50,668 nucleotides of DNA from a virus, in the IMG/VR virus record IMGVR_UViG_3300006147_000025. One strand, given 5' to 3'. Positions 12,701 to 35,308 of the stretch are shown here, one piece after another. Each line of letters starts with the position of its first letter. Position 1 is the first letter of the stretch. The notes under the pieces are model-generated. The model did no database searches and was not told the DNA's origin. It saw nothing but the letters and a program-made list of their open reading frames with translations. Made by a program: the position numbers and the translations under genes.

Positions 12701-13942
12701 AAAATTAAGGGCGAACTTACCATAGAAGGACAGGAACAGCTCGATATATTGAACGCCGCCCTTAACAAAGAAACAGGGGTAGCAAAGAGCGTCGGCGCGG
12801 GCTTTAAGGAAGCCTTCGGCGACCTCGGCAGTAGCCTAACCTTCCTTTCGTCGTGCTTCGGAAGCGTGACAAACGGCATAAAGAAGATGGGTATAAGCAT
12901 GGACGAGGAAACGGAAGCCATATTAGGCGACATAGGCGGAATGTTGGACGGGGCCTCCCAAATTGCCACAGGCATAGCCACCGCCAACCCGTTAAGCATT
13001 ATTCAAGGATCCATAGGCTTTTTGTCGTCAGCCTTCGACCTATTCAACAGCCGCGACCGCAAGGCCGAAAAGTCCATTAAGAAGCACGAAGAAGCCGTTA
13101 CCCGGTTGGGACGTGCCTATACAGCATTGGAACACGCCGTAGACAAAGCCCTCGGCGAAACCGTCTACCAAAACCAAAGTGCGTTAATTCAGAACCTACG
13201 GCAGCAGCAGAACGAAATACAAGGAATGATTAACGACGAAATCTCCAAGAAGAAAACCGATTGGGGACGCGTCGAGGAGTTCCAAGAACGCTACGCCGAA
13301 GCCGGGCGACAGATTGAGGACATCATCGCCGAAATCACGAAAAGCATCACCCAAACTTCCGCCGGGGACTTAGCCAACGAATTAAAGGACGCACTTATAG
13401 AAGCCTTCGAGAGCGGAGAGGACGCTGCAAAGGTATTCGGCGACGTAGCCGACAACGTGCTTAAAAACGCTGTTTCCAACGCCCTAAAACTTCAATTTTT
13501 GGAGAAGCCATTGCAGAACGCAATTAAGCAGCTTCAAAAAGATATGGGCTTCGACGCAGAAGGAAACGGCAGTTTCGACGGACTAACCCAAGCCGAACAA
13601 GACCGCTTTAAGGCAGCGGTAGCCGCAGCCGGGCAGAACTTCAAGGCGGCGATGGATATGTATAAAGACCTATTCGCCGAATTGGAAGACGAAAGCGACC
13701 CGACAAGCCTAAGCGGTGCAATAAAGGGGGCAAGCCAAGAGAGTATAGACCTATTGGCAGGCCAGACCAACGCCGTAAGGCAGAACCAAGTTATAGCCAT
13801 TGAAATTTTTAGGCAGCAGCTTATCCACCTTTCAAGCATGGATAACCGATTAGGGAACATAGCCGGAAGCCTTATATCCATACTTAACCGTTTGGGAATA
13901 GACGACGGCGACGACCTACGAAGCCAAGGAATAACCGACTAA
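9716..13942 (+). CDS. Tape measure protein (1408 aa)
   Basis: Length, extensive coiled-coil sequence, hydrophobic segments near the N terminus and conserved position. Confidence 0.85.
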   Translation: MNIQGGGLSFDISGTNKQLISVLNESKKAIQEFQGAAVLGGKQMDGAFTRAAQAIDKAFAQIDVVVDTNKAAIAELEAEYKRLGVEASKALSAGHKEEAAALQTKQAQLREEITLRQTVINEAGKQADALLREEQQLRKAEEAARNNANAQTSLRTQLRNVREQLGQMEEAGLRGTETFRKLQQEAGRLANAIGGAQTQARIFSHDNAGLQGMIAGLSGVAGAFSTAQGAVALFAGENENLQKIMLKVQALMSITMGLQQVANALNKDSAFMLVTVAKAKEMLAAANLKLAGALGISTVAAQALMATLTLGLSAAITGIIYIISKLNSKQAEAKKAADEFNKKVAEAAGKPIAAYRALQAEWIQLTDNLKDREKWVQDNADKFNDLGYKVRNAKEAEDLLIKNSAKFVEACILKAKALAAQNLAAEKYQEIIKKQAEIDAMPDTVSQFVQTSSGQYGGVTGYYIEVANSAKARAKQELTEMQDAAKTLIEQQTQFTAQEQAILAQIGNQAGQVVEGSVATAEKELQRLRGLYNDAATDAERSKLARQIAAQQKEVDRLSLKTSSGGSGGSGGNGNNKDPFAEQLAQRKTLYEKYLKRITSSDETVRNAAASEFAPLLKEGSSYLQYLENQCAAIEAKTAKTATDLKNLTTLNNEIANATRESVISAFDTQLQQELAQCKTISEMLATIERRRSELAGDNSDVDNAKAEILNTAEADTRQQAKEETKALLQEYAGYLQEKIDFEESYARKKELLSRQAAESATDAERQVAEAALAALEKKREEYSKRSGSEQYDALLEEYKTYQEQETAILEKYAAQRALAEQQGNASMIAQINAKQQSELSKLAAQRLMASESWGQLFSDISRLSTTTINRLLNDINSRKINLSAEFNPADLKAINDQLQKAKNELATRNPFLALRQSLSELRAAMKAEKLLDSDDPFVKSLEEKKKQYADYTDAINSSGTTLAGAAKEAYADLLAEGSSYVDMLRKKIATLNGLKIKGELTIEGQEQLDILNAALNKETGVAKSVGAGFKEAFGDLGSSLTFLSSCFGSVTNGIKKMGISMDEETEAILGDIGGMLDGASQIATGIATANPLSIIQGSIGFLSSAFDLFNSRDRKAEKSIKKHEEAVTRLGRAYTALEHAVDKALGETVYQNQSALIQNLRQQQNEIQGMINDEISKKKTDWGRVEEFQERYAEAGRQIEDIIAEITKSITQTSAGDLANELKDALIEAFESGEDAAKVFGDVADNVLKNAVSNALKLQFLEKPLQNAIKQLQKDMGFDAEGNGSFDGLTQAEQDRFKAAVAAAGQNFKAAMDMYKDLFAELEDESDPTSLSGAIKGASQESIDLLAGQTNAVRQNQVIAIEIFRQQLIHLSSMDNRLGNIAGSLISILNRLGIDDGDDLRSQGITD

Positions 13943-14465: not shown

Positions 14466-15683
14466 ATGGCATTAGAGCAAAACCTTATACTTAACCTTCC
14501 CTTCGACGAAGTGGACGGTTCAACCGTAGCCTATGACTTCGCCGCCAACCGCCACGACGCGGAAATAGTGGGCTGTCCCTTTGTCGTAGGCAAACAGGGC
14601 AACTGCCTACGCTTCCCCGGCGAAGGCTACGCCGAAGTTCCGGCTAACGTCATACCCTTAACCGGGAACTTCACTATTTTAGCGTGGGTCAAGGCGAACA
14701 AATACGCCGACGGAGTTACAGGAAAGCGAATCGGGCTTTTTTGTAATACCGCGCTATTGGAGGGAAGCCGCGAAATTTGGATAGACGTAAACCCCGATAG
14801 TTGGGGCTTCCTTACCATAAAGAAGGCCGGGAACACCGTAACCCTTTACTTAGACACGCAGCGCGTTAGCAGTGTTACGCTACCCGCCGCGCTTACAGGA
14901 ATAGCCATTATTCAAGATGTCTATGGAACGGAATACGGCTATGCCGATTTAGACGAAGTGAAGGTTTACAACGTAGCCCTATCCGACGACGATATAGCCG
15001 GAAGCCTTAACAGCGTTTCGCAACTTGAATACTACCTTAACGGCGTAAACTTCCGCGAAATGGGTATAAGGGTAGAGAGTTCCAACGGCGTAACCGACCT
15101 TCCGAAGTTGAAGCAGGCCGCCTCGGTTGATTGGCCCGACTACCACGGCAAAGTAGTAGACCTCGCAAACAAGCGTTACGAGGAACGCGAAATAACGCTT
15201 AATTGTTGGTTGAAGGCTTCGGGTAAAATTGACTTCGTGGAGAGGGTAAACCGACTTTTCGATATTCTACGCGAGGACGGGACGGCGCGGCTTATGATAA
15301 GCATCCACCCGACGAAGCCACTACTTTACGAAGTCTACGCCCCGGACGGCATAGCCTTTAACAAGCGTTGGCACGACGACAAGATGATAGGCACTTTCAG
15401 CCTAAAATTAAAAGAACCCGACCCCGTGAAACGTGTAGTTCGCCACCAACGAATAAACGACGCAAGCCGCGAAGTACGCATCGCCCTCAAGACCGACAAA
15501 GTTGTTAACGTCTATTGGGGCGACGGCACCGTAACCAAAGACGTTTACGGCGACTTCACAGGCGCGAAGGCGTTGAAGCATACCTACGCCGAAAACGGCG
15601 TTTACTACGTCGTAATTGCCGGGGTTATTGAGGAAATAACCGACTTTTCCACCAACGGCATCATCGTATGGAACAGATTATAA
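14466..15683 (+). CDS. Distal tail protein (Dit-like) with an N-terminal LamG/concanavalin-like lectin domain (405 aa)
   Basis: The N-terminal approximately 180 aa (LNLPFDE..GNCLRFPGEGYAEV..LAWVKAN..LYLD) resembles LamG. The C-terminal half resembles siphovirus tail (Dit) proteins. Confidence 0.55.
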   Translation: MALEQNLILNLPFDEVDGSTVAYDFAANRHDAEIVGCPFVVGKQGNCLRFPGEGYAEVPANVIPLTGNFTILAWVKANKYADGVTGKRIGLFCNTALLEGSREIWIDVNPDSWGFLTIKKAGNTVTLYLDTQRVSSVTLPAALTGIAIIQDVYGTEYGYADLDEVKVYNVALSDDDIAGSLNSVSQLEYYLNGVNFREMGIRVESSNGVTDLPKLKQAASVDWPDYHGKVVDLANKRYEEREITLNCWLKASGKIDFVERVNRLFDILREDGTARLMISIHPTKPLLYEVYAPDGIAFNKRWHDDKMIGTFSLKLKEPDPVKRVVRHQRINDASREVRIALKTDKVVNVYWGDGTVTKDVYGDFTGAKALKHTYAENGVYYVVIAGVIEEITDFSTNGIIVWNRL

Positions 15684-18600
15684 TTACCCATTCCGACGGA
15701 AGCGAAACCCCGCTTTTCAGCCGTAAGAACGTCAGCGGAATCAGTAAGGCGACCCAAAAAACCGCCTTACTTTCCGACGACGTTGTTACCGTTACCGTTT
15801 CGTCAGCCGTACCCCTTCCCGTCGATATTGGCGACCGCATAAAAGTCTACGGGCGTACCTATACGGCTAACCAATTACCCGAACCGGGTAAGAACGGACT
15901 ACGCCGCTACGAATACGACATAACCTTTGAGGGGTTGCAGTACGGACTTATAGACGCGCAATATAAGTTACCGCCGGACGCTTACGGCGATACCTATTAC
16001 AGCGACCTATATGGGCATTTGCGCGTATTGGTGTGGAACGCCAACCGCGTACAGCCTAATAAGTGGCGTTTAGGGAGCTGCCCGGCGGAAGGGACGACCG
16101 ACTACAAGAACCTAACCACGTCGAGCCGTAACTGCCTACAAGTGCTTCAAGACATTTGTAGCGAATGGAACGTAGAATTTGAGATAACACCCGGCAACGG
16201 CTTCAACACGATTAACATCAAGGAGAAGGCGGGCGTTACCCACGCCTTTACGCTTCGTTACGGACGTGGCAAAGGCTTGTATAGCCTTAAACGTACCAAC
16301 GTGAACAACGCCGGACTAACTACCCGCCTTTTCGTTTACGGCGGACAGGATAACCTCGGACAAAACTACGGCCATACCCGGCTATGCCTTCCCAACACCG
16401 ACCGCCTTACTTCCTTCTTAGAGGACGCGAAGGCAATAGCCCAATACGGCGTAAAGGAAAACGAAAAAGTTTACGACATCAAGCCGGAGCGCGTCGGCGA
16501 GGTTACAGCGATAGGCCCGGACGAAATAACCTTTTCCGACACCACCGCCGGGGATAACGCTATGTTCGACTTGAACGCCAAGAAGCCGGACGGAAGTACC
16601 CGTTATCTATTGGACGGAGTGGCAGCAAAAATCAAGTTCCAAACCGGGCAGTTAGCGGGCTACGAATTTGATGTACACAAGTACGACCACGCTACCCGTA
16701 CCTTCATACTTAACCGCTTCACGGACGAAAACGGTATGGTATTCCCTTCCGCCACGTCCGGCGCGTTCCAAATTTCCAAGGGCGACAAGTATATAATTAC
16801 CGAGATACAACTGCCCGAAAGTTATATTACCGCCGCCGAAAACAAGTTAGCGGAAGCCGCAAAGAAGGACTTCCCGGCTATGACACAGCCCCAAGTAAGT
16901 TATAAACTTACCCTTTCCGAAGACTTCCTTATAAAGACCTTCGGGCAAGAGGTGGAAGCCGAAATTTTCCACGTTGGCGACTACATTAACGTCGAGGACG
17001 AAGAATTAGGCATTAACAAGGCTGTCCGCATAGTAAGGATAGAACGTAACCTATTGAAGCGGCATACCTACGAACTAACCCTGAGCGACACCGTTACGAA
17101 GTCTACTACCGTCCGCGTATTGAACGAGATAGAAGACATTAACGACGTGATAAACATCAACAAGTTAGCCGACCCCACAAGGGCGCGGCGACGTTGGATG
17201 GCTACGCAAGAGTTGTTAAACATGGTATTCGACCCGGAAGGCGACTATTACAGCGAGAAAATAAAGCCCCTTTCCATTGAAACGCAGATGTTAAGCGTTG
17301 GCGCGAAGTCTACGCAGTTCACGCTGTTAAACGCAACCTTCCAACCGAACTACAACAAGGATCCAAACGCGCTATACATTTCCGGCGGACGGTTGGCCCA
17401 TTACGCCATAGAAGAAAATATTAGGCAGTGGGTACTGACTACGGCGACCTATACCAACCTTAAACCCGCGACAGCCTATTATATTTACGCCCGTTGTTCC
17501 ACAACAGCGGGGAACGGTACTATTATCCTTTCCGAAAGTGCCATAACCGTAGAACAGGAAGCCGGGTATTATAACTTCCTCGTCGGAGTGCTTAACAGCG
17601 TCGTAACCGACGCGGGCGGCAAGAACCCCGGCCGATTGGTAAGCCTTACTTACGGCAGTTCCACAATAAACGGGCGTTTCCTTCGTACCGGGCGAATTGA
17701 GAGCAGCGGCGGCGGTAAGTGCTACTTCGATTTGGATAACGACGAAATAGGCGGCGTTATTCGCTTCGTAGGCAGCGACGGCAACTATTACGACATTGCC
17801 GACGTACAGGAAAAGACCGACGAACTGAAGGACTATATAAACAACACCCTTCCGGGGGTATTGGGCGAACTTCAAGCGCAGTTAGACGGCGTGATAGAAC
17901 AATGGTTTTATCAGTCCGACCCGTCGGACACCACCGAACCTACAAAGGATTGGATAGCCGCCGGAACAAAGGAGCAAGACAACCACCTCGGCGACCTATA
18001 CTATAACACGGAAACGGGCAAGGTTTGGCGATACATCAAAACTACCGAAGCAAGCGGCACCGGGAAGCCCCGCGATGTTTACAAGTGGCAAGAACTTGAA
18101 GACACGGAATTAGCCCAAGCGTTAGCGTTGGCACAGGACGCACTCGACGCAGCCAACGACAAGGCTAAAATATTCGTATCTACCCCTTACACGCCTTACC
18201 ACGTTGGCGACCTTTGGGTACAAGGCAACACGGGCGACATCCTACGATGCAAACGTGAGCGACTAACCGGGGCTTATAATTCCGGCGATTGGGAGAAGGC
18301 GAGCAAGTACACCGACGACAGCGGGCTAACGAACTTCATAAATAATAATTTTCTTCCAACCGTCAGCGATATAAACGACCAAATAGACGGAAAGATAGAG
18401 AGCTGGTTCCAGACAACCGACCCGGCTACGGCGTGGACGACAACAGCGGAGAAGTTAAAGCACGTTGGCGACTATTGGTATAATACCTCTACCAAGGAAT
18501 TAAAGTATTATAGGCGTATTGCCGTTTCAACAAGTACAAGCCTCGGCACGGTATATGTCTATTCGTGGGCGAAAATAGAAGACCAAAAGGCAATAGACGC

Positions 18601-19789
18601 ATACGAAGCCGCAAGCAAAGCACAGGACACCGCAGACCGCAAGCGGCAAGTATTCGTAGCACAGCCTTACGGCCCTTACGACGTGGGCGACCTTTGGCTA
18701 CGCTCGTGGACGGATAGCACAGGAGTAGCCCGGAAAGACCTCTACCGTTGTGTTACCGCCCGCGCTTCCGGCTTTAACGTGAACGATTGGGCGGAAGCCA
18801 CCTTTTACGACAACACTCAAGTAACCATCGACCGGGGTATAATTACCGCCGGAACGGTGCAACTTGCTAATAAAAATTCCCAAAGTATTGTAGCCGGAAT
18901 AACAGGCGGCGAGAACGAAGCAGCCAACGAAACCGAGGCCCGAAAGGTTAGAATTTGGGCCGGTGCAAGTAAGGCTAATCGCTTTACTGCCCCCTTCCGC
19001 GTTCTTCAAGACGGCTCCTTTGTCGCAACGAAAGGAACGATAACGGGAACAATTAACGCCAAGTCCGGCACTATTGGTAATAAACTTCTTGTTAGCGGTG
19101 AGGGTATAAGTTACGGCGATGTTTCGACGTGGGATTATAGTACAGGCGAGAAAATGCTGTTAAGTCCCCAAGCCATACGCATACAAACCCAAGACACAAC
19201 GGTAGGAAACAGTAACAACCACCCGTTTGGGCGTGTGGCGTTGGGTAAGGGAGCAAATTCTCAGTCGTCATACGATTTCGGAACGATTGCGCATATTTAC
19301 AAATACGATGTTCTTAACTCTTACAGCAGCGCACTACAACCGGCCGTGTTGATAGAATCATACACGCAACAAGGCCCCGGAGTAGCATTAAAAACCAACG
19401 GTTCAATAGTGGCCCGTGGCGGAATTGTCGAAATGGGTAATTATATTGCTACCGACTCTTCCGTTATGAGTGTAATAAATCTATACCCCTTTAACGGTTC
19501 AATATTCATAATTAATAATAAAACGGCTAACAAGCCCGCTTATTTACCTTCCGTTCAAACATTACGCTACATATTTGGAATAAACATATGGCAAGCGTTT
19601 ACGTTCAGAATGGTTGTGATTTCGATGCGGGGTAATTCCAACTTCATACTCCAAAAGCCAACAGACGCCACAGTATATAACGGAAATTCGGCAATTGAAA
19701 AGTTAACAATAGGGGGTAATACCCAGTACGAATTACTATTTATTACCGATGGCTCTACCGCATATTGGAAGATTAAAAATATTTCATAG
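15668..19789 (+). CDS. Tail-associated / host-specificity protein (Tal-fibre fusion, 1373 aa)
   Basis: Follows Dit with a 16-nt overlap. Contains internal tandem modules and an AT-rich C-terminal tip. Confidence 0.65.
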   Translation: MEQIIITHSDGSETPLFSRKNVSGISKATQKTALLSDDVVTVTVSSAVPLPVDIGDRIKVYGRTYTANQLPEPGKNGLRRYEYDITFEGLQYGLIDAQYKLPPDAYGDTYYSDLYGHLRVLVWNANRVQPNKWRLGSCPAEGTTDYKNLTTSSRNCLQVLQDICSEWNVEFEITPGNGFNTINIKEKAGVTHAFTLRYGRGKGLYSLKRTNVNNAGLTTRLFVYGGQDNLGQNYGHTRLCLPNTDRLTSFLEDAKAIAQYGVKENEKVYDIKPERVGEVTAIGPDEITFSDTTAGDNAMFDLNAKKPDGSTRYLLDGVAAKIKFQTGQLAGYEFDVHKYDHATRTFILNRFTDENGMVFPSATSGAFQISKGDKYIITEIQLPESYITAAENKLAEAAKKDFPAMTQPQVSYKLTLSEDFLIKTFGQEVEAEIFHVGDYINVEDEELGINKAVRIVRIERNLLKRHTYELTLSDTVTKSTTVRVLNEIEDINDVININKLADPTRARRRWMATQELLNMVFDPEGDYYSEKIKPLSIETQMLSVGAKSTQFTLLNATFQPNYNKDPNALYISGGRLAHYAIEENIRQWVLTTATYTNLKPATAYYIYARCSTTAGNGTIILSESAITVEQEAGYYNFLVGVLNSVVTDAGGKNPGRLVSLTYGSSTINGRFLRTGRIESSGGGKCYFDLDNDEIGGVIRFVGSDGNYYDIADVQEKTDELKDYINNTLPGVLGELQAQLDGVIEQWFYQSDPSDTTEPTKDWIAAGTKEQDNHLGDLYYNTETGKVWRYIKTTEASGTGKPRDVYKWQELEDTELAQALALAQDALDAANDKAKIFVSTPYTPYHVGDLWVQGNTGDILRCKRERLTGAYNSGDWEKASKYTDDSGLTNFINNNFLPTVSDINDQIDGKIESWFQTTDPATAWTTTAEKLKHVGDYWYNTSTKELKYYRRIAVSTSTSLGTVYVYSWAKIEDQKAIDAYEAASKAQDTADRKRQVFVAQPYGPYDVGDLWLRSWTDSTGVARKDLYRCVTARASGFNVNDWAEATFYDNTQVTIDRGIITAGTVQLANKNSQSIVAGITGGENEAANETEARKVRIWAGASKANRFTAPFRVLQDGSFVATKGTITGTINAKSGTIGNKLLVSGEGISYGDVSTWDYSTGEKMLLSPQAIRIQTQDTTVGNSNNHPFGRVALGKGANSQSSYDFGTIAHIYKYDVLNSYSSALQPAVLIESYTQQGPGVALKTNGSIVARGGIVEMGNYIATDSSVMSVINLYPFNGSIFIINNKTANKPAYLPSVQTLRYIFGINIWQAFTFRMVVISMRGNSNFILQKPTDATVYNGNSAIEKLTIGGNTQYELLFITDGSTAYWKIKNIS

Positions 19790-19801
19790 CAGCTACAACC
19801 T

Positions 19802-19836
19802 GGAGGAAGGCGAAAAACACGGCTTCGCCTTCTTCC
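19802..19836 (+). terminator. 13-bp hairpin after the tail fibre gene
   Basis: ggaggaaggcgaa-N9-ttcgccttcttcc with one G-U pair. No clear T tract follows. Confidence 0.45.
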
Positions 19837-19872
19837 GGGGATAATTTGGCGGTATAATCACGGACAAAACCG

Positions 19873-19933
19873 CTAAAACACTTCACGGAAACTAAGCGAC
19901 GTATTAAATTGATACGATTATAAAGTAAATTTG
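19873..19933 (+). promoter_or_regulatory. Candidate promoter of the DGR target operon
   Basis: TAAATTTG box at 19926-19933, 22 nt before ATG 19956. The 17-bp palindrome cgtattaaattgatacg lies at 19900-19916. An inverted GAAGTGTTTTAG element lies at 19873-19884. Confidence 0.45.
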
Positions 19934-19955: not shown

Positions 19956-20216
19956 ATGGTAAACAGGAACGGCGACCAAGTAAGCGTGCAAGTTTCGGTA
20001 ATTGGCCCGGTCAACTTCGACGGCGGCAGCTTCCGAAAAGATACCCCCTTTTGCGTCAAGAACGACGGAGAAGCGGCGGTAGTGCTTGAAGTAAACCTTT
20101 GGGGAATGCCCGAAGGCGAATTTATTGCCACACGCTTTGAAACAGGGTGGAACCCCGAAATAGTCCGCGAGATAAAATCAACAAGTCAAAAAACCGCCCT
20201 TCTTTGGGGCTATTAA
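19956..20216 (+). CDS. Hypothetical protein (86 aa), first gene of the DGR unit
   Basis: ATG ORF between the candidate promoter and the target gene. Confidence 0.5.
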   Translation: MVNRNGDQVSVQVSVIGPVNFDGGSFRKDTPFCVKNDGEAAVVLEVNLWGMPEGEFIATRFETGWNPEIVREIKSTSQKTALLWGY

Positions 20217-20230
20217 AACAACATACGAAC

Positions 20231-21562
20231 ATGGGTTTAATCATAGCAGCGGGCAACACTAAGCCCGCCTTCCCTTACGATTATTACTACGGCGTGAAAA
20301 TCAAGACGACCGTAGCCGCTACCACGTTGGAAAGAGTGGGCCGCCCGGAACTTCACGTTTCCCTGCCTATTCAGTCCAAAATGCGCCGCTGTGTGCTTCG
20401 TGACAACGGAACGGTAGCCTATTACCTTCACGCCACCGACAGCACCAAGCGCGACAACGGAGCCGCCGCCAACCTTACCGGGGCGGACGGTCAAGTAATG
20501 GTAGAAATTCCGCGCCACTACCGAAAATTTGAGTTCGACGGCACGGACTTAGTAGCCCTTATTTCCGAGTACCCCCTGCCGGGCTTCCACGAAGTCCCCA
20601 AGATGTACCGCAGTGCTTACGAAGCCACCGTAGACCGCACCGTTACGGCTACGCCTAAATTGGCTTCCGTCGTCAACGCTACCGCCGCTTTCCGTGGTGG
20701 AAACAATAACACCGCGTGGGATGGAACATACCGCAGCCTTCTCGGACTTCCGGCTACACAAATTTCCCTTACCAACTTCCGCAACTACGCCCGCAACCGT
20801 GGCGAAGCCGGACTTAACGGCAAAGGGTGGAACTGCGACTTATACGCCGCGCAGCTTACAACCTATTGGCTGTTCGTCATTGAATACGCCAACCTTAACT
20901 GCCAAGCGGCATTTAACCCGCAGCCCGACGCAAACGGTTACAAACAGGGCGGACTCGGCGCAGGCGTAACAACGCTTAATAGTACGAAGTGGAACACATT
21001 TAACGGCTACTACCCGTTCGTCCCGTGTGGCTACACCAACAGCCTCGGCAACGCTACGGGCGTGGTAGAGTTCACAATGCCCACCGAATACGACGCTACC
21101 CCCTTAGTCGTACAGGTTCCAAGTTACCGAGGGTTAGAAAACCCCTTTGGGCATATTTGGAGCTGGACGGACGGCTGCAAGTGTGAGATACAGAGCGACG
21201 CGGACGGCGGGCTGTCAAAGTTCTACGTTTGCAACGACCCGGCGCAGTTCCAAGACAGCAGCTATAACGGCTACGACTACCGGGGCGACCTTCCCCGCAA
21301 GGAAGGTTACGTTAAGGCCATACTTGCCGGAGAGTTCGGCGAGAATATGCCGCGAGAGGTTGGCGGCGGTTCTACGACCTACTTCTCGGACTACTTCTAT
21401 ACCAATATACCCGCTTCCGGCGTGGCTATGAGGGGCGTTTTGTTCGGCGGTGGTGCGTCCGGCGGCGCGTATGCCGGGCTTGCGTTCGCGCATACGGCCG
21501 GCGCGGCTACGGCTACGGATGCGCTCCTCGGCTCCCGGCTTTGCTTTATACCCGCCGCGTAG
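20231..21562 (+). CDS. DGR target protein 1 (443 aa), probable receptor-binding protein with a C-terminal variable ligand-binding fold
   Basis: Start taken at ATG 20231. The last 39 codons are VR1, ending ...GSRLCFIPAA. It lies directly after the tail fibre gene. Confidence 0.85.
   Translation: MGLIIAAGNTKPAFPYDYYYGVKIKTTVAATTLERVGRPELHVSLPIQSKMRRCVLRDNGTVAYYLHATDSTKRDNGAAANLTGADGQVMVEIPRHYRKFEFDGTDLVALISEYPLPGFHEVPKMYRSAYEATVDRTVTATPKLASVVNATAAFRGGNNNTAWDGTYRSLLGLPATQISLTNFRNYARNRGEAGLNGKGWNCDLYAAQLTTYWLFVIEYANLNCQAAFNPQPDANGYKQGGLGAGVTTLNSTKWNTFNGYYPFVPCGYTNSLGNATGVVEFTMPTEYDATPLVVQVPSYRGLENPFGHIWSWTDGCKCEIQSDADGGLSKFYVCNDPAQFQDSSYNGYDYRGDLPRKEGYVKAILAGEFGENMPREVGGGSTTYFSDYFYTNIPASGVAMRGVLFGGGASGGAYAGLAFAHTAGAATATDALLGSRLCFIPAA
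21433..21545 (+). repeat. DGR variable region VR1
   Basis: 113 nt aligned without gaps to the TR at 22035-22147. There are 23 mismatches, all at TR adenines (23 of 29 A positions), and no other mismatch. Confidence 0.95.
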
Positions 21563-21602
21563 CACGTCCACGCCCCACGACCTACAAAAACACAATAACC
21601 CG

Positions 21603-21639
21603 CCCCAACCGCCGCGTACCGTTTATTCGGCGGTTGGGG
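21603..21639. other. 12-bp perfect GC-rich hairpin (ccccaaccgccg-N13-cggcggttgggg) 57 nt downstream of VR1
   Basis: Read directly from the sequence. Could be a terminator, a DGR target-recognition structure, or both. Confidence 0.5.
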
Positions 21640-21657
21640 TCAATAAAAAACAAAAAT

Positions 21658-22011
21658 ATGGATACCCAAACGAACCCCGGACACGACGACGGAACCCTCG
21701 CCTTCCTGAATATTCCACAGGACGAGAATAACAAGCACTTCAACTGCCACGAAACCACGCAGCAGAAGTTAATTAACCTTTCCTTCTTCGTGCTTGACTT
21801 CATCGACGGAGTTAAGACCAAGTTCGGGGCGGAACGCTTCTTAGTGAAGATAAAGCACCCGGACAACAGCCCCGACAAGGCGGGGCAAGTGGAAAAGTTC
21901 TTTACCAATTCCACCGAAATAAAGTATGTGCTTCGTGAGATTAAGAAGCGTAACGCCTTCCCGCGAAAAGTCACTATGAGGGCTTCGGGAACGCGCTACT
22001 ACTTTGAATAA
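21658..22011 (+). CDS. Putative DGR accessory protein in the Avd position but not Avd-like (117 aa)
   Basis: Start taken at ATG 21658 (MDTQTNPG...). It lies between the target gene and the TR. The sequence looks beta-rich and basic at the C terminus, not a four-helix bundle. Confidence 0.5.
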   Translation: MDTQTNPGHDDGTLAFLNIPQDENNKHFNCHETTQQKLINLSFFVLDFIDGVKTKFGAERFLVKIKHPDNSPDKAGQVEKFFTNSTEIKYVLREIKKRNAFPRKVTMRASGTRYYFE

Positions 22012-22034
22012 AACGAATTGGGTTGTTTGCCTTC

Positions 22035-22147
22035 GGGCGTTTTGTTCGGCGGTAATGCGAACAACGGCGCGAATGCCGGGCTTGCGAACGCGAATACGAA
22101 CAACGCGGCTACGAATACGAATGCGAACATCGGCTCCCGGAATTACT
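22035..22147 (+). repeat. DGR template repeat (TR)
   Basis: Non-coding. Contains 12 AAY triplets plus 5 single As in the VR reading frame. Matches VR1 over 113 nt and VR2 over 88 nt, differing only at adenines. Confidence 0.95.
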
Positions 22148-22238
22148 GATACACTTAGCCCCATAGGGTTAAGACACGATACTAAAAAGGCAAAGACCCC
22201 GCCCGCAAAGGCGAAAAATAGTAATTATTTAACGGCTT

Positions 22239-23321
22239 TTGGTAGGCTACACGCCGAAGAACGCCATAGAATCAGCAAAGCAAAAAGAAGTGAAACGACG
22301 CGGAAACATATACGGCGAATTTAGCAGCGTGGAGAATATAACCCACGCTATAATTACGTCGCCAAGCCGCAACAAGAAGAAACCCCGGCGACTTGCAAAG
22401 ACCGTCGAGGAACAGGCGAAGGAAATACACGCCCTTCTCGTTAGCGATAGTTTCCGCCCGTCGCCTTCTTATACCGTTAAAATTCACGACCCCAAAGAAC
22501 GCCTTCTTACCATACTTCCCGAAACGCCCGACAAGATAGTACACCGCGCCCTGTTAAACGTGCTTCGCCCCATTTGGGACAAAGTATTTATTTCCGCTTG
22601 TTATTGCGGAGTGAAGCGGCGCGGGCAACTTCCGGCAGCTAAAAAGGTTTTGGACTTCTTACAGGAAGCCCGGCAGAGCGGCCCGGTATATTGTCTTAAA
22701 TTCGACATAAGGAAGTATTACCCTTCCATAAACCACGAAGTAATGAAGGGAATAGTACGCCGAAGCATTAAGGACAAACGGATCCTTAAAATTTTGGACG
22801 ACATTATAGACAGCGAACCCGGCATTATGCTCGGTAGCCCGCTTAGTCCATACTTCGCCAACCTTTATATTACGCCGTTGTGCCATTGGCTCAAGGAGAA
22901 GAAGGGCGTTAAATACCTTATTGACTACGCCGACGACTTTGTTATACTTTCCAACGATAAAGAGGAATTGCACCGTTTACTCGCCGAGATTGAGGACTAC
23001 ACGACCAACAAATTAAAAATAGAGGTCAAGAGGAATAAGCAAATTTTCCCGGTAGCCTTAGACCGAAGCGACAAACACGGCCGGGGCATTGACTTTTTAG
23101 GCTTCGTCTTTAACCTTAACGAAACACGGATAAGGAAGGGTATTAAGCGAAACCTTTGCCGGAAGTTGGCGAAGTTACGGAAAGCCAAACACCCCGTACC
23201 CGAAAAGGAGTTTTTACAGGCTCTTGCGTCGTGGTGGGGTTGGCTTAAATACAGCGATAGCGACTATTTTATTAACAAACTAAACAAGAAAAGCCCGTAT
23301 GAAATCAAATTCAGACGTTAG
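22239..23321 (+). CDS. DGR reverse transcriptase (360 aa)
   Basis: N terminus RRGNIYGEFSSVENI. Also KFDIRKYYPSINH, LGSPLSPYFANLY, the YADD box (IDYADDFVIL) and IDFLGF. TTG start, with no in-frame ATG near it. Confidence 0.9.
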   Translation: MVGYTPKNAIESAKQKEVKRRGNIYGEFSSVENITHAIITSPSRNKKKPRRLAKTVEEQAKEIHALLVSDSFRPSPSYTVKIHDPKERLLTILPETPDKIVHRALLNVLRPIWDKVFISACYCGVKRRGQLPAAKKVLDFLQEARQSGPVYCLKFDIRKYYPSINHEVMKGIVRRSIKDKRILKILDDIIDSEPGIMLGSPLSPYFANLYITPLCHWLKEKKGVKYLIDYADDFVILSNDKEELHRLLAEIEDYTTNKLKIEVKRNKQIFPVALDRSDKHGRGIDFLGFVFNLNETRIRKGIKRNLCRKLAKLRKAKHPVPEKEFLQALASWWGWLKYSDSDYFINKLNKKSPYEIKFRR

Positions 23322-24358: not shown

Positions 24359-24931
24359 ATGGCAAATTTAGCAATTTTAGCCCCCTTCATTTTGTCGCAC
24401 GAAGGCGGGTTTGTAAACGACCCCTTAGACCGGGGCGGAGCGACCAACAAAGGCGTTACTATTGCGACATGGCGACAAGTTGGCTACGACAAGGACGGCG
24501 ACGGCGACATCGACGTAGACGACCTCAAGAAGATAACCGACACCGACGCGGTGGAGCGTGTTATGCGTCCCCACTATTGGAACCGGTGGAAAGCCGACCG
24601 CATTACTTCGCAGTCCGTCGCTAACATTGTCGTCGATTGGGTATGGGCTTCCGGCAAGCACGGAATAACCAAGGTTCAGGCCCTTCTCGGCGTGAAGGTG
24701 GACGGCATTGTAGGCGACAAGACCTTAGCCGCCCTTAACGCACAGCCGCCCCGCGTCCTGTTCGACAAGATTAAGGCCGCCCGCGTCGCCTTCATTGAAG
24801 GCATCATAGCCGCCAACCCTTCACAAAAGCGGTTTAGGAAAGGATGGCTTAACCGCCTTAACCGTATTCAGTACGGAAGCCTTACCCACAACACGAACCC
24901 CGCTAAAAAAGTAACCTTCCCCGACGTATGA
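24359..24931 (+). CDS. Endolysin, glycoside hydrolase family 108 with a C-terminal peptidoglycan-binding domain
   Basis: [23 protein letters not shown] signature of GH108. [13 protein letters not shown] is typical of PG_binding_3. An EF-hand-like loop [12 protein letters not shown] lies at 24488-24526. Confidence 0.8.
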
Positions 24932-25614: not shown

Positions 25615-25845
25615 AAAAGTACCCTTAAAAGTCCGTTTTCGGGTACTTTTTCGGGTACTTATTTGCTACTTTGCTGTATTACAGCGTTGTTGGCGGAGAG
25701 GACGAGTCTACGAGGTTTATTTAATATTATTTCCAACCATAGCCAAACATTAACGGTTACAGCGTTTAACGTGGTAACGCTTGTTTCATTGGGTAGGTGC
25801 ATAATCAAACATTAAACGTAAAACCGGGTACTTTTTCGGGTACTT
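25615..25845. repeat. attP-like region with repeated GGGTACTT(T) motifs
   Basis: Identical 21-mers CGGGTACTTTTTCGGGTACTT at 25640-25660 and 25825-25845, plus an inverted copy aaaagtaccc at 25615-25624. The region abuts the integrase 3' end. Confidence 0.5.
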
Positions 25846-27182
25846 CATTTTTTGCCTTCTTCGGATTTGGTACGATTGACATCGAAGGAATTAAATCGTT
25901 CCATATTTTCAGCCTTCAAAGCGTCTACTATTTTTATATACGGCTTCATTGCCTTATAGTCAGCGTGGCCCGTCCATTGCATAATAACAGGCGCGGGAAT
26001 ACCGAGCCGGAAGGCGTTAACAATAAAAGTACGTCGCCCGGCGTGGGTAGTTAATACTTCGTGCTTCGGTACAACCGCTTCCGTCCGTTGAGAACCGCAA
26101 AAAGAAACTATTCGCACAGGCGCATCAAGTCCGGCGGCTTCCGCCGCTTCGTGAAGGTTGCTGTTCATTCGTTGATTACTTAACACAGGCATAGCGGCAT
26201 CGTCCGGCAAAGGTATATTAACGTATTTGTCAAGGATAGCAAGCGCGTACTTATTTAATTCTATGTGTAGTCGTTTGGAAGTTTTTTTAGTTACCACGCT
26301 AATATAAGGTGGCACGGCTTCGCGGTAAACGTCCGATTTACGCAGTTTCGCAGCGTCGGAGTACCGAAGCCCAGTAAAGCAGCAGAAGCAGAAGGCATCG
26401 CGGACTATTTCGAAGGAGTTGTTAAAGCCGGAGAAGTCAAAATTTAGAAAGTGGTGCAATTCTTCCCATTCCAAATAAATAACTTCTTTGCAGTCCAATC
26501 CCTTAAAGCGTGGGCGATATTGAACATGGGCCAGCCCGGAATAATAGCCATTAGCAGCAGCCCAACGCAAGAACCAACGCACGAAAGCGACATTTTTAGC
26601 GACCGTGGTATTTAACTGCCCTTCCTTTGTCTGCAAGTGGGTAACAAACCCGGCGAAAGTATTTTTATCGAAGCCTTCCAACGTCAGCCGTCTATTATAC
26701 TTTTTAAGGTGGGCTTTTAGGCTTTTGAATTTGGTATAGGTTGCATGGGTCCAATTATTCGTAACCCCCATTTCCCCGGTAAATAGGTCATAGACGGCGA
26801 AGAACCCTAACGGCTTTTCTTCCGGCTTCTTTTCTTCGGGCTTCGCACGTCCGGCGGCCAAGTCGAAGGCTTCCTTAAATTCGGCGACCGAAGGCGGGCG
26901 TTTATTGTCAAGTTCAAACCGGGTAAGGACTTCTTCAATAGTGGAAGCCACAGCCATAACGCCGCGATTGATAGCCCCGGCTGTTTCGCCGTGGCTGTTC
27001 TTGTTTCCGAGCCGGACGCAACTATTAGCGTCGTCCCATTTTGCCGGGGCGATAACATAGCCGGAGCGGATATCGCACCGAAGACCGGCCCACGATACCC
27101 GAAGCCTAATACCGACTTCTTCCGTAGCCTTACCCTTATTGTTAGGCTTTATATGTAACCCTACCTTAATTTTGAACTTCAT
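25845..27182 (-). CDS. int: Tyrosine recombinase / integrase, Bacteroides phage-CTn type (445 aa)
   Basis: N-terminal arm-binding-like segment (VGIRLRVSWAGLRCDIRSGY). Catalytic HAGRRTF and GHADYKAMKPY motifs near the C terminus. Confidence 0.9.
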   Translation of the reverse strand: MKFKIKVGLHIKPNNKGKATEEVGIRLRVSWAGLRCDIRSGYVIAPAKWDDANSCVRLGNKNSHGETAGAINRGVMAVASTIEEVLTRFELDNKRPPSVAEFKEAFDLAAGRAKPEEKKPEEKPLGFFAVYDLFTGEMGVTNNWTHATYTKFKSLKAHLKKYNRRLTLEGFDKNTFAGFVTHLQTKEGQLNTTVAKNVAFVRWFLRWAAANGYYSGLAHVQYRPRFKGLDCKEVIYLEWEELHHFLNFDFSGFNNSFEIVRDAFCFCCFTGLRYSDAAKLRKSDVYREAVPPYISVVTKKTSKRLHIELNKYALAILDKYVNIPLPDDAAMPVLSNQRMNSNLHEAAEAAGLDAPVRIVSFCGSQRTEAVVPKHEVLTTHAGRRTFIVNAFRLGIPAPVIMQWTGHADYKAMKPYIKIVDALKAENMERFNSFDVNRTKSEEGKK

Positions 27183-34738: not shown

Positions 34739-35308
34739 ATGAAGAAAATAGCACTTTTCCGAAAGTACGGCGAATCCGCCGAGTTCGTAGCCCGCTTCGA
34801 CAGCGTAGAAGAAGCAAGCGACCAAGTGAAGGACATCATCAACGAAGACGAAGACGCTAACGTATTCGACTTCTACACCGAGGAACAGGAGTACACCGAC
34901 ATCCGCGAACGCGTGAAGACATACGCCGACGCTTGCGAAGTCTTAGGCATAGCCGAAATGGACGAAAAGGCTTTTAAGGCCTGCGGCTTCCGTCCCGACG
35001 AGATAGCTCGCCGTAAGTTGGAAACCATAACCGAAGCCCTTAACGAAGGTTGGCGGCCGGATTGGAACAATACCAACGAATACAAGTATTTCCCCTGGTT
35101 CCGTATTCTTCCCGGCAAGGGTAAGGACGCAGAGGGTAAACCCGACGGCGCGTCTGCCGGGCTTGCGGACGCGCATACGAACCGCGCGGCTCCGTCTACG
35201 AATGCGTACTTCGGCTCCCGGCTTTGCTTCCACGACAGCGACATCGCCGCCTACGCGGGCGACACGTTCCGCGACCTTTACGCCCAAATCTTAGTAGAAA
35301 AATTCTAA
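34739..35308 (+). CDS. DGR target protein 2 (189 aa), remote small target in the early/replication module
   Basis: Contains VR2 in the same codon phase as VR1 (...GKPDGASAGLADAHTNRAAPSTNAYFGSRLCF...). Confidence 0.85.
   Translation: MKKIALFRKYGESAEFVARFDSVEEASDQVKDIINEDEDANVFDFYTEEQEYTDIRERVKTYADACEVLGIAEMDEKAFKACGFRPDEIARRKLETITEALNEGWRPDWNNTNEYKYFPWFRILPGKGKDAEGKPDGASAGLADAHTNRAAPSTNAYFGSRLCFHDSDIAAYAGDTFRDLYAQILVEKF
35141..35228 (+). repeat. DGR variable region VR2
   Basis: 88 nt aligned without gaps to TR 22060-22147. There are 17 mismatches, all at TR adenines (17 of 27), and no other mismatch. Confidence 0.93.

What the first reader, a model, noticed from the sequence alone, without database searches (positions are those of the whole stretch)
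19956..23321. Diversity-generating retroelement next to the tail genes
Seen: a 113-nt non-coding template (TR, 22035-22147) aligns without gaps to the 3' end of the 20231-21562 gene (VR1, 21433-21545). There are 23 mismatches, every one at a TR adenine (23 of 29 As), and no mismatch at any C, G or T. The TR adenines are arranged almost entirely as AAY triplets in the VR reading frame. Downstream lies an RT with a YADD box. The unit has its own candidate promoter (19926) and is preceded by a terminator-like hairpin (19802-19836). Established: adenine-specific TR-to-VR differences, AAY codons and an adjacent RT define DGRs, and phage DGRs typically diversify receptor-binding proteins. Inference: this phage diversifies a tail-associated ligand-binding protein for tropism switching.
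Basis: partly seen in the sequence, partly recalled or inferred. Interest (0 to 1): 0.85.

Follow-up and report, generated by a model that had tools for sequence, protein, structure and literature searches.

The report
Active two-target phage diversity-generating retroelement
This temperate gut phage carries a working diversity-generating retroelement that rewrites the tip of a tail protein and also a small early-region protein; the mechanism is well known, but this version has an unusual helper gene instead of the standard one.

Summary
TR 22035-22147 aligns without gaps to VR1 21433-21545. All 23 mismatches fall on TR adenines (P about 8e-19). A reverse transcriptase with a YADD box lies just downstream. 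It is a genuine and recently active DGR. Near-identical metagenomic relatives keep the TR unchanged but carry three VR1 alleles that differ only at TR-adenine sites. Within >=90%-identity protein clusters, variation piles up on the AAY-templated codons.

I add four things.
1. A second target, VR2 (35141-35228), lies in a 189-aa protein in the recombination module. This layout recurs in phages Versailles and LoVEphage.
2. The last three "mutations" (AATTAC to CTTTGC) are fixed IMH/IMH* differences, not mutagenesis.
3. The spacer between TR and RT holds a conserved structured RNA related to Rfam RT-17.
4. The 117-aa ORF between VR1 and TR is not Avd. It is a free-standing homologue of the C-terminal domain of hankyphage-type DGR reverse transcriptases (hhalign 99.3%), so it is a candidate new accessory factor.

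The RT has the rarer LGxxxSP motif. The C-type-lectin fold could not be confirmed because the model was poor. Verdict: a known kind of system in a modestly new variant.

The parts
19799..19839 (+). Imperfect hairpin (16-nt arms, 9-nt loop) just after the stop of the 1373-aa Prophage_tail (Tal-like) gene. It may be an operon boundary.
   Evidence: inverted repeat I6, 88% complementary. No T-run follows, and the terminator scan does not call it.
19926..19933 (+). TAAATTTG, an exact match to the Bacteroidetes -7 promoter consensus TAnnTTTG (consensus from my own knowledge). It lies 23 nt upstream of the ATG at 19956, inside one of the few intergenic gaps.
   Evidence: The motif count in the window equals chance (31 found, 34 expected), so this is a candidate only.
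19956..20216 (+). 86-aa acidic ORF (pI 4.8; phrog_26422, function unknown). It is conserved immediately upstream of the DGR target, also in distant cassettes (37-50% identity in L016, L017, L021). It is probably a tail-fibre partner or assembly protein (inference).
20231..21562 (+). DGR target gene 1 (443 aa), a tail-module protein. It belongs to phrog_5302 'tail protein' and is homologous to the crAss-like phage 'tail collar fibre' DGR targets.
   Evidence: (more than 4798 homologues)
21433..21545 (+). VR1. The diversified codons span 21452-21527. The 3' part, 21528-21546 (TCGGCTCCCGG CTTTGCTT), is the invariant IMH-like end that encodes GSRLCF.
21603..21640 (+). 12-bp perfect GC-rich hairpin 58 nt downstream of VR1. 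It lies between the target gene and the accessory gene. VR2 has no counterpart.
21658..22011 (+). 117-aa basic ORF (pI 9.0; phrog_19665, function unknown). It occupies the position that avd has in canonical DGRs but is not Avd-like. It is homologous to the C-terminal domain of hankyphage-type DGR reverse transcriptases, which makes it a candidate DGR accessory factor.
22035..22147 (+). Template repeat (TR). It is non-coding and holds 12 AAY codons in the VR frame. The IMH* end, at 22130-22148, reads TCGGCTCCCGG AATTACTG.
   Evidence: 100% conserved among relatives with 97-100% identical RT
22195..22287 (+). Conserved structured RNA in the TR-RT spacer, related to Rfam RT-17 and RT-14. Its core is GACC-hairpin-AAAA...UGGUAGG-hairpin-CGAAGAAC. 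It is presumed to be part of the DGR RNA that the RT recognises.
22290..23321 (+). DGR reverse transcriptase (343 aa from GTG 22290; an upstream TTG at 22239 is less likely to be the start). The catalytic motif is YADD and motif 4 is LGSPLSP.
34739..35308 (+). DGR target gene 2, a 189-aa acidic protein (phrog_11581, function unknown). It lies in the recombination/replication module, after the SbcC-like, hydrolase and NinB-like genes.
35141..35228 (+). VR2. It matches TR 22060-22147 with mismatches only at TR adenines (15 over the 86 nt counted from TR 22062; P 1.5e-10). It has the same IMH-like 3' end as VR1. The codons that vary in the population start at D136 (35144).
   Evidence: (cluster 8)

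Best explanation
Overview: this is a functional diversity-generating retroelement of a temperate siphovirus-like phage of Muribaculaceae (Bacteroidales).

Proposed mechanism:
1. A transcript is made that covers the TR (22035-22147) and the structured spacer RNA (22195-22287).
2. The cassette's RT (22290-23321) copies it. Adenines are copied unfaithfully and other bases faithfully.
3. The cDNA replaces the homologous VR. The 3' boundary is set by the GC-rich stretch plus the IMH (TCGGCTCCCGG|CTTTGCTT). This element is shared by both VRs and differs from the TR's IMH*, which makes transfer one-way.

Two genes are rewritten:
- VR1 is at the C-terminus of a 443-aa tail-module protein, the probable receptor-binding protein.
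- VR2 is near the C-terminus of a 189-aa protein encoded 13 kb away, among the recombination genes.

The cassette has no Avd. In Avd's place is a 117-aa basic protein that is a free-standing homologue of the C-terminal domain of hankyphage-type DGR RTs. I infer that it is an RT partner.

Shown here: the repeats, the adenine specificity, the RT, natural diversification of both VRs, the fixed IMH, the conserved RNA, and the accessory-to-RT-domain homology.

Inferred: cDNA priming and integration as in BPP-1, receptor binding by target 1, and a role of the 117-aa protein in retrohoming.
For: Repeat statistics: VR1 has 23 of 23 mismatches at TR adenines (P 8e-19). VR2 has 15 of 15 (P 1.5e-10).

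RT identity: the RT is RVT_1/phrog_1423. Its nearest relatives are RTs that sit beside the homologous tail-protein gene in crAss-like phages and Bacteroides phage Versailles, and each is about 32-41% identical to the window RT. I verified a TR/VR pair for Versailles.

Activity:
- Seven IMG/VR loci whose RT is 97-100% identical to the window's have an identical TR. They carry three VR1 alleles that differ only at TR-A positions.
- In eight clusters at >=90% protein identity, columns with 6-9 different residues among 13-15 sequences coincide with the AAY codons, in both the target 1 family and the target 2 family. GSRLCF never varies.

Related loci: 29 of the 32 related loci I scanned for repeats have an adenine-specific TR/VR pair next to the RT. 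The three without a pair are L021, L025 and L039; in L025 the RT lies 434 nt from the contig end.

Two-target layout: the same layout is present in phage Versailles and in LoVEphage.

Spacer RNA: its core is conserved down to 37% RT identity. Six of 11 predicted pairs show compensatory changes. Rfam RT-17 scores 30.8 bits in the window, and 41.3 and 46.3 bits (above the gathering score) in relatives L008 and L034.

Accessory ORF:
- It always lies between the target and the TR.
- dN/dS is 0.09-0.12.
- Profile hits fall on the C-termini of RVT_1 proteins.
- hhalign gives probability 99.3%, E 1e-20.
- tblastn hits only the 3' end of the hankyphage RT gene.

External support: hankyphage DGR activity has been shown experimentally (PMC12135933).
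Against: - No reads were available, so diversification within this particular population is inferred from related genomes.
- The RT motif 4 is LGxxxSP rather than the signature [ILV]GxxxSQ. This variant is documented in DGRs (PMC3521204, PMC11054128), and Brt Q187P retains adenine mutagenesis (PMC7826257).
- No BPP-1-like hairpin lies directly after either VR.
- The C-type-lectin fold was not confirmed.
- More distant cassettes (Versailles, L016-L019, crAss-like phages) lack the 117-aa gene. One prophage (Barnesiella sp. WM24, L012 = L027) has a nonsense codon in it. The gene is therefore not universally required and could be a passenger.
Confidence: 0.92

Rival explanations
1. The cassette is a fossil. 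The TR/VR differences record past activity, and the element no longer diversifies anything in this phage.
For: No read-level data exist for this genome. VR1 is identical in the window and in three IMG/VR contigs (L003, L007, L015). The RT carries the non-canonical SP motif.
Against: The TR, RT, accessory gene and both target ORFs are intact. The TR is invariant, while three VR1 alleles exist among genomes with 97-100% identical RT. Clusters at 90% identity hold hundreds to more than 11,000 distinct sequences whose variation is confined to AAY codons. SP-type RTs are found in other DGRs with adenine-specific VRs (PMC3521204).
Confidence: 0.05
2. The 117-aa ORF is a passenger (moron) gene that happens to sit between the target and the TR in one phage lineage. 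It has no role in retrohoming. Under this reading the cassette works like the accessory-free 'architecture A / lineage 3' DGRs.
For: Related DGRs with the same target family and spacer RNA work without it. In Versailles, L016-L018 and crAss-like phages the TR-VR spacing is about 200-300 nt instead of about 600. One prophage has a nonsense mutation in it. It matches no family of known function.
Against: Its position is strictly conserved in every context examined, including a lineage with a different lysis cassette (L034). Purifying selection is strong (dN/dS about 0.1). The same domain is fused to the C-terminus of DGR-type RTs in hankyphage-like phages. That kind of fusion is a classical indicator of a functional link. 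It is also basic and Avd-sized (pI 9.0, 13.6 kDa).
Confidence: 0.35
3. Target 1 is not a receptor-binding tail protein. It would be a virion-decoration or non-structural binding protein, so diversification would not serve host-range switching.
For: The fold was not confirmed. There is no Pfam domain. The hankyphage and 'tentaclin' precedents show that DGR targets can be non-fibre proteins (PMC6199706, PMC10743442).
Against: The gene is placed immediately after the Dit-like and Tal-like genes and before the lysis genes. It matches the phrog_5302 tail protein family. It is homologous to a Yersinia phage tail fibre and to crAss-like tail collar fibre proteins.
Confidence: 0.15
4. The repeat is an ordinary duplication that diverged by chance or through compositional bias, and the RT belongs to a group II intron, retron or defence RT.
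For: NCBIfam gives sub-threshold hits to group II intron, Drt and retron RT models.
Against: The adenine restriction has P 8e-19, and it is repeated independently at VR2. All of those NCBIfam scores are far below their cut-offs (116 bits against 300 for the best hit). No intron RNA or retron ncRNA was found by Rfam.
Confidence: 0.01

Closest known systems
Bordetella phage BPP-1 DGR (mtd-avd-TR-brt), the prototype
   Same: It has a target gene with a 3' VR, a downstream TR and then an RT, with adenine-specific mutagenesis. It has IMH/IMH* directionality with a GC-rich stretch at the 3' boundary. A small basic ORF sits between the target and the TR. It is phage-borne and lies next to tail and lysis genes.
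   Different: The RTs are only 25% identical. The ORF in the avd position has no similarity to bAvd (BLASTP found nothing; hhalign probability 0.15%). There is no hairpin directly after the VR. The window element has a second target. Motif 4 is LGxxxSP rather than IGSLTSQ.
crAss-like phage DGRs (for example crAssphage LMMB; Wu et al. 2018 'lineage 3', CLec3-class VR, architecture target-TR-RT without avd)
   Same: These are the closest RTs among deposited phage genomes (33-41% identity). The target family is homologous ('tail collar fibre', 36-47% identity). They lack Avd. The window VR ends in GSRLC, the motif that PMC7290462 gives for the CLec3 / lineage 3 class (that paper notes the crAss genus I VRs themselves have lost it). 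Epsilon crAss-like RTs also carry GxxxSP (PMC11054128).
   Different: The host phage is a 50-kb temperate siphovirus-like phage with an integrase, not a crassvirus. There is an extra 117-aa gene between the VR and the TR. There is a second, remote target.
Bacteroides hankyphage (phage p00) DGR
   Same: It is a DGR of a Bacteroidales temperate phage with experimentally shown activity (PMC12135933). The last ~100 residues of its RT are homologous to the window's 117-aa protein. A structured 'RT-n' RNA (RT-3) lies between the TR and the RT.
   Different: There the domain is fused to the RT, whereas here it is a separate gene upstream of the TR. The hankyphage target is a very large protein with the VR at about residue 2200. 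The phage is Mu-like and transposable. The RT has the canonical IGxxxSQ motif.
Two-target phage DGRs: Bacuni phages of B. uniformis (PMC8143477) and nd4/nd12 'tentaclin' phages (PMC10743442)
   Same: One TR serves an RT-adjacent target and a distant target within the same phage genome.
   Different: The Bacuni cassette is reported to have an Avd, and its targets carry DUF1566/Fib_succ_major domains. The tentaclin targets have an N-terminal VR and Ig domains. Here the second target is a 189-aa protein with no known domain, encoded in the recombination module.
Bacteroides phage Versailles (ON453897) and LoVEphage (MW660583)
   Same: By my analysis they have the same pair of targets: a tail (collar fibre) protein plus a ~190-aa early-region protein that is about 33% identical to the window's target 2. 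Both VRs match one TR with adenine-only mismatches.
   Different: Neither record annotates the TR/VR pairs or the second target as a DGR target, and the LoVEphage paper (PMC8525569) notes only the RT beside the tail collar fibre gene. In both genomes the gap between target 1 and the RT holds only short ORFs, and tblastn with the 117-aa protein hit neither genome. The Versailles RT has the canonical SQ motif.

Membership tests
Diversity-generating retroelement (DGR) | A TR/VR repeat pair whose differences are restricted to TR adenines | tested here: met
   VR1 has 23 of 23 mismatches at A (P 8e-19). VR2 has 15 of 15 (P 1.5e-10)..
Diversity-generating retroelement (DGR) | An adjacent reverse transcriptase related to DGR RTs, with an intact YxDD catalytic motif | tested here: met
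   RVT_1 at E 6e-17, phrog_1423 at E 1e-91, motif YADD. Nearly all relatives examined sit next to adenine-specific TR/VR pairs.
Diversity-generating retroelement (DGR) | The signature RT motif 4, [I/V/L]GxxxSQ | tested here: inconclusive
   The window and every relative with >=70% identical RT that was examined have LGSP[LI]SP: the L-G part is present but P replaces Q. More distant relatives have IGNYLSQ. About 10% of DGRs vary in the last two motif residues, SP included (PMC3521204). Brt Q187P keeps adenine mutagenesis (PMC7826257). The motif is typical of DGRs rather than obligatory. It may cause myDGR to miss the element (PMC11054128).
Diversity-generating retroelement (DGR) | The VR lies at the 3' end of an ORF, and the TR is non-coding with AAY-rich design in the VR frame | tested here: met
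   VR1 encodes residues 402-439 of 443. VR2 encodes residues 135-164 of 189. There are 12 AAY codons holding 24 of 29 adenines.
Diversity-generating retroelement (DGR) | An IMH at the VR 3' end that differs from IMH* at the TR 3' end, preceded by a GC-rich stretch | tested here: met
   VR1 and VR2 share TCGGCTCCCGG-CTTTGCTT, where the TR has TCGGCTCCCGG-AATTACTG. The encoded GSRLCF is invariant in all clusters and loci. Its function as an IMH is inferred.
Diversity-generating retroelement (DGR) | A GC-rich hairpin/cruciform immediately downstream of the VR (BPP-1 type target recognition) | tested here: not met
   The only strong hairpin lies 58 nt after VR1 (21603-21640). None lies after VR2, where the fold z-score is +1.06. 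This feature is not universal among DGRs.
Diversity-generating retroelement (DGR) | Ongoing diversification at TR-adenine positions in natural populations | tested here: met
   Three VR1 alleles occur with an invariant TR among near-identical loci. Hypervariable columns are confined to AAY codons in eight clusters at >=90% identity. Read-level data for this sample were not available.
Diversity-generating retroelement (DGR) | The variable protein has a C-type-lectin (or Ig) fold that displays the VR | tested here: inconclusive
   The AlphaFold model of target 1 has pLDDT 52. There is no Pfam hit in 41 members. hhalign against Mtd gives probability 0.8%. Foldseek finds nothing. The VR2 region of target 2 has pLDDT below 50. 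The only positive sign is that the VR consensus ends in GSRLC, as in the CLec3 class (PMC7290462).
Avd (accessory variability determinant; basic four-helix-bundle pentamer) | Sequence or profile similarity to Avd / the PF05635-type four-helix-bundle family | tested here: not met
   BLASTP against bAvd gave no alignment. hhalign probability is 0.15%. None of 46 family members hits Pfam at E <= 1, and there is no NCBIfam hit. Only the size (117 aa) and pI (9.0) resemble Avd. The fold was not predicted.
Wu et al. 2018 'lineage 3' / architecture A DGRs (target-TR-RT, no avd, CLec3 VR) | No accessory gene, with the core order target-TR-RT | tested here: not met
   The order is target-117 aa ORF-TR-RT. 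The ORF is conserved in this lineage. Avd is absent, as in lineage 3. The RT's place in the phylogeny was not computed.
Rfam RT-17 RNA (RF03020), a structured RNA upstream of RT genes | A covariance-model score at or above the gathering threshold (40.4 bits) | tested here: not met
   The window scores 30.8 bits at 22195-22287 (E 2e-4, full-length match). Homologous spacers in relatives score 41.3 bits (L008) and 46.3 bits (L034), above threshold. It is therefore a divergent relative. It works like RT-17 but does not qualify as a member by score.

The most novel reading that the evidence does not exclude
The 117-aa basic protein (21658-22011) defines a previously unrecognised class of DGR accessory factor. 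It is a nucleic-acid- or RT-binding module. In hankyphage-type DGRs it is fused to the RT C-terminus. Here it acts in trans and replaces Avd in an Avd-less branch of Bacteroidales phage DGRs.

In addition, the conserved second target, a ~190-aa protein encoded among early/recombination genes in three divergent phage groups, may not be a virion receptor-binding protein. If so, these phages use one TR to diversify both an adsorption function and a second, possibly intracellular or early-acting, binding function.
Probability: 0.35. Interest if true: 0.7.

Novelty: new variant of a known kind. Interest (0 to 1): 0.45.

Why it matters
Why it is routine: DGRs are the only known natural targeted hypermutation system in prokaryotes and their viruses, and gut Bacteroidales phages are their richest reservoir. 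On that count this element is one more confirmed, evidently active example.

Why it is worth a second look: how the Avd-less DGRs prime and process cDNA is an open question. Wu et al. 2018 explicitly inferred an Avd-independent mechanism. A small conserved protein in the avd slot is homologous to an unexplained C-terminal domain of the experimentally active hankyphage RT. That gives a concrete, testable candidate for the missing partner.

The recurrent small second target in Versailles, LoVEphage and this phage suggests that these phages co-diversify two functions from one template. That bears on how host range and perhaps other interactions evolve in the gut.

Practical point: GxxxSP RTs can be missed by motif-based DGR finders.

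Tried and rejected
- Structure of target 1: AlphaFold2 with 41 homologues (70-88% identity) gave pLDDT 52, and Foldseek against the PDB found nothing. The alignment was too shallow, so the C-type-lectin test failed for technical reasons.
- Structure of target 2: the model has pLDDT 78 but the VR segment is below 50. There is no PDB match. Only uncharacterised phage proteins match in BFVD, with a DUF7336-like N-terminal domain.
- Sequence searches on target 1: Pfam, NCBIfam, PDB sequence search and hhalign against Mtd were all negative.
- Accessory protein: comparison with bAvd, Pfam, PDB and NCBIfam was negative. Identity with the CH1 accessory class of Wu et al. was rejected on size and charge (160-169 aa and pI 4.7, against 117 aa and pI 9.0).
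- Possible link between the accessory gene and the SP motif: rejected, because L034 has the accessory gene with a canonical IGNYLSQ RT.
- Known phage relatives: megablast of the cassette and of 25 kb of the window against 50,697 phage genomes found nothing.
- Regulatory signals: sigma-70 promoter and intrinsic terminator scans were at chance level. The TAnnTTTG motif count was at chance level.
- Hairpins: the search for a shared hairpin after both VRs was negative.
- Rfam at gathering threshold on the window: no hit. The RT-17 and RT-14 hits appear only below threshold.

Full report
**1. The observation**

The window holds a 113-nt direct repeat with a spacing of 602 nt, at 21433-21545 and 22035-22147 (repeat finder family D1). 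My base-by-base alignment shows 23 mismatches. Every one is at an adenine of the downstream copy (23 of its 29 A). None is at its 84 C, G or T positions. The replacements are G 10, C 7 and T 6.

If 23 mismatches were placed at random, the chance that all would fall on the 29 A positions is 8e-19. The homology stops abruptly on both sides. In the reading frame of the 20231-21562 ORF, the downstream copy reads as 12 AAY codons holding 24 of the 29 adenines.

The ORF that follows is a reverse transcriptase (Pfam RVT_1 at E 6e-17, PHROG 1423 at E 1e-91, catalytic YADD).

**2. Refinements to the observation**

*Fixed IMH differences.* The three 3'-most 'mutations' are not mutagenesis. The TR reads ...TCGGCTCCCGG AAT TAC TG. 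Both VR1 and a second VR (see section 4) read ...TCGGCTCCCGG CTT TGC TT. The encoded GSRLCF is invariant in every relative and cluster. This is the expected signature of an IMH (in the VR) against an IMH* (in the TR), preceded by a GC-rich stretch. That arrangement makes information flow one-way. The mutagenised interval is 21452-21527.

*RT start.* The RT most likely starts at GTG 22290 (MKRRGNIY...), where relatives have ATG or GTG. The TTG at 22239 is less likely.

*Promoter and hairpin.* TAAATTTG at 19926 is a perfect Bacteroidetes -7 box (consensus from my own knowledge) in an intergenic gap. The motif occurs at chance frequency in the window (31 found, 34 expected). The hairpin at 19799-19839 is real but lacks a T-run. 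Both are plausible but unproven.

**3. Is the element active?**

The window protein sequences are in the public protein collection. Seven IMG/VR contigs whose RT is 97-100% identical to the window's carry a TR that is 100% identical to the window's. Their VR1 occurs in three versions, and these differ from each other and from the TR only at TR-adenine positions. The CT..G of the IMH is constant.

I took seven clusters of target 1 relatives, each cluster at >=90% identity. They have 558 to 11,593 members, and I sampled 13-15 from each. The columns with 6-9 different residues are exactly the AAY-templated ones. In cluster 4 almost nothing else varies at all.

Of the 32 related loci I scanned for repeats, 29 have an adenine-specific TR/VR pair beside the RT. 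The exceptions are L021, L025 and L039; in L025 the RT lies 434 nt from the contig end.

None of them is met. I could not look at reads from this sample.

**4. A second target**

Scanning the window with the TR, with adenines treated as wildcards, finds a second match at 35141-35228. Over the 86 nt from TR 22062 there are 15 mismatches, all at adenines (P 1.5e-10). The IMH-like end is the same as in VR1.

This VR lies in a 189-aa acidic ORF (34739-35308; phrog_11581, function unknown). The ORF is 13 kb downstream, among SbcC-like, metal-hydrolase and NinB-like genes. Its >=90%-identity cluster (758 members) is hypervariable at the AAY codons only (cluster 8). The family has 572 homologues with a well-conserved N-terminal half.

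The AlphaFold model is good for residues 1-110 and poor over the VR (mean pLDDT 78). It matches nothing in the PDB. In BFVD it matches only uncharacterised phage proteins.

The same two-target layout is present in two other phages:
- Bacteroides phage Versailles has VR1 in the 'tail protein' and VR2 in a small protein next to NinB.
- LoVEphage has VR1 in the tail collar fibre and VR2 in a 194-aa early-region protein encoded on the opposite genome strand.

The second-target proteins are only about 33% identical to the window's, so the arrangement is old and conserved. Two-target phage DGRs are known (Bacuni phages, PMC8143477; tentaclins, PMC10743442). I found no description of this particular second target in the papers I read.

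**5. The rest of the cassette**

*(a) Spacer RNA.* The 142 nt between the TR and the RT start contain a core that is conserved in cassettes whose RTs are as little as 37% identical, including a hankyphage-like one. The core reads GGCAAAGACC-hairpin-AAAA...UGGUAGG-hairpin-CGAAGAAC. RNAalifold predicts 11 pairs, and 6 of them show compensatory changes.

Rfam RT-17 (RF03020) matches window 22195-22287 full-length at 30.8 bits, below its gathering score of 40.4. The homologous spacers of L008 and L034 score 41.3 and 46.3 bits. The hankyphage-like locus has RT-3 at 134.8 bits. This is a divergent member of the 'RT-n' class of RNAs found upstream of RT genes. It is presumably the part of the DGR RNA that the RT recognises.

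*(b) RT motif 4.* The motif is LGSPLSP. Every relative with >=70% identical RT that I examined shares the SP ending, while more distant ones have IGNYLSQ. SP variants are documented in DGRs (PMC3521204). They were called unusual in epsilon crAss-like phages, where they defeat myDGR (PMC11054128). Brt Q187P keeps adenine mutagenesis (PMC7826257).

*(c) The 117-aa ORF (21658-22011).* It sits where avd sits in BPP-1. It is basic (pI 9.0, 13.6 kDa) but shows no similarity to bAvd, Pfam, NCBIfam or the PDB.

Several lines of evidence indicate that it is a real, selected gene:
- It has 451 homologues at 63-97% identity.
- dN/dS is about 0.1.
- It lies between the target and the TR in every context I examined, including one with a different lysis module.

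A profile search of 1.84 billion representatives found only 206 relatives. The larger ones among them are reverse transcriptases that carry this domain at their C-terminus. One of these (P0599) lies in a Mu-like prophage next to an AAY-rich, TR-like segment. It is 78% identical to the hankyphage RT.

tblastn of the 117-aa protein against 50,697 phage genomes hits only the 3' end of the hankyphage RT gene (33% identity). Profile-profile comparison gives probability 99.3%, E 1e-20. A domain that is fused to the RT in one lineage and encoded beside it in another is good circumstantial evidence that the protein works with the RT.

There are caveats. Versailles, L016-L019 and crAss-like cassettes lack the gene (TR-VR spacing about 200-300 nt). 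One prophage copy (Barnesiella sp. WM24) has a nonsense codon in it. It also does not fit the four accessory classes of Wu et al. 2018 (avd, HRDC, MSL, CH1; PMC5758913).

**6. Context**

The window looks like a whole temperate phage genome. It contains:
- a tape measure gene (9716-13942);
- a Dit-like gene (14466-15683);
- a Prophage_tail/Tal-like gene (15668-19789);
- the DGR;
- a GH108 endolysin (24359-24931);
- an integrase (25845-27182, minus strand);
- a recombination and replication module;
- a methyltransferase.

No deposited phage is similar at the nucleotide level. Close relatives lie in Muribaculaceae and Bacteroidales genomes, such as Paramuribaculum intestinale and Barnesiella sp. 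WM24.

Target 1 is 36-47% identical to the DGR targets of crAss-like phages. It is 31% identical to a Yersinia phage tail fibre. This supports a role as a tail or receptor-binding protein.

**7. Mechanism, with what is shown and what is inferred**

Shown here:
- the parts and their order;
- the adenine specificity;
- the fixed IMH;
- natural diversification of both VRs;
- the conserved RNA;
- the homology between the accessory protein and the RT domain.

Inferred from the BPP-1 paradigm and from work on Bacteroides DGRs:
- The TR-spacer RNA is reverse-transcribed with misincorporation opposite A.
- The cDNA replaces the VR, starting within the GC-rich/IMH boundary.
- The 5' junction is resolved by homology. 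VR2 has a shorter 5' homology than VR1.
- Variation in target 1 alters receptor binding.

Not established: the C-type-lectin fold, the function of target 2, and the role of the 117-aa and 86-aa proteins.

**8. Verdict**

This is a correct call of a well-known type of element, and the element is active. It is not categorically new. It is a modestly new variant because it combines four features: no Avd, a candidate new accessory domain linked to the hankyphage RT, an SP-type RT, and a conserved, unannotated second target.

Noticed in passing
window 34739-35308 (VR2 at 35141-35228): This is a second DGR target 13 kb from the cassette. It is a 189-aa protein of unknown function in the recombination module. 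It is hypervariable in nature, and the same kind of target is present in phages Versailles and LoVEphage, where it is not annotated as a DGR target.
   Followed up: yes
L037:5001-6173 (ENA ERZ28436075 NODE_160): There is a tandem duplication of the accessory gene. The first copy is followed by a hybrid repeat made of the TR 5' half joined to a VR-type 3' end, plus the sequence that follows the target gene. The second copy is followed by a normal TR. This is either a TR/VR recombination product or an assembly artefact.
   Followed up: partly
L012:9377-9727, identical to L027 (Barnesiella sp. WM24 prophage): The accessory gene carries an in-frame TAG at the invariant Gln35 codon. The near-identical metagenomic copy L013 has CAG there. 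This could be a nonsense mutation in a decaying prophage or, less likely, a recoded or suppressed stop.
   Followed up: partly
L039:4806-4954 and L039:5001-6311 (hankyphage-like prophage): The RT of hankyphage-type DGRs has a C-terminal domain of about 100 aa that is homologous to the window's free-standing 117-aa protein. Rfam RT-3 RNA (134.8 bits) lies between the TR-like segment and the RT. The two hankyphage papers I searched by term (PMC6199706 for 'C-terminal', PMC12135933 for Avd/accessory/DGR) gave no passage describing this domain.
   Followed up: partly
window 22821-22841 (RT residues 178-184): RT motif 4 is LGSPLSP (GxxxSP) instead of the DGR signature GxxxSQ. Motif-based DGR finders such as myDGR may therefore miss this element, as reported for epsilon crAss-like phages.
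   Followed up: yes
window 19956-20216: An 86-aa acidic ORF (phrog_26422) is conserved directly upstream of the DGR target, also in distant cassettes (37-50% identity in L016, L017 and L021). Its function is unknown. It may be a fibre assembly or attachment partner.
   Followed up: partly
window 25845-27182 (minus strand) and 24359-24931: A tyrosine integrase (phrog_1) and a GH108/PG_binding_3 endolysin flank the region after the DGR. Together with the genome-sized set of modules, this suggests the window is a complete temperate phage genome. I did not look for attachment sites or the contig ends.
   Followed up: no
window 34739-34900 (residues 1-55 of target 2): The N-terminal beta-beta-alpha-beta unit of the VR2 protein structurally resembles small DUF7336-like proteins of many unrelated phages. 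Foldseek probability is about 1.0, but E-values are only 0.02-0.2.
   Followed up: no
window 38397-39005 and 39012-40487: A nucleoside 2-deoxyribosyltransferase-like / MazG-like protein (phrog_5781/355) sits next to a large DNA methyltransferase (phrog_116). This may be a DNA-modification or anti-restriction module.
   Followed up: no
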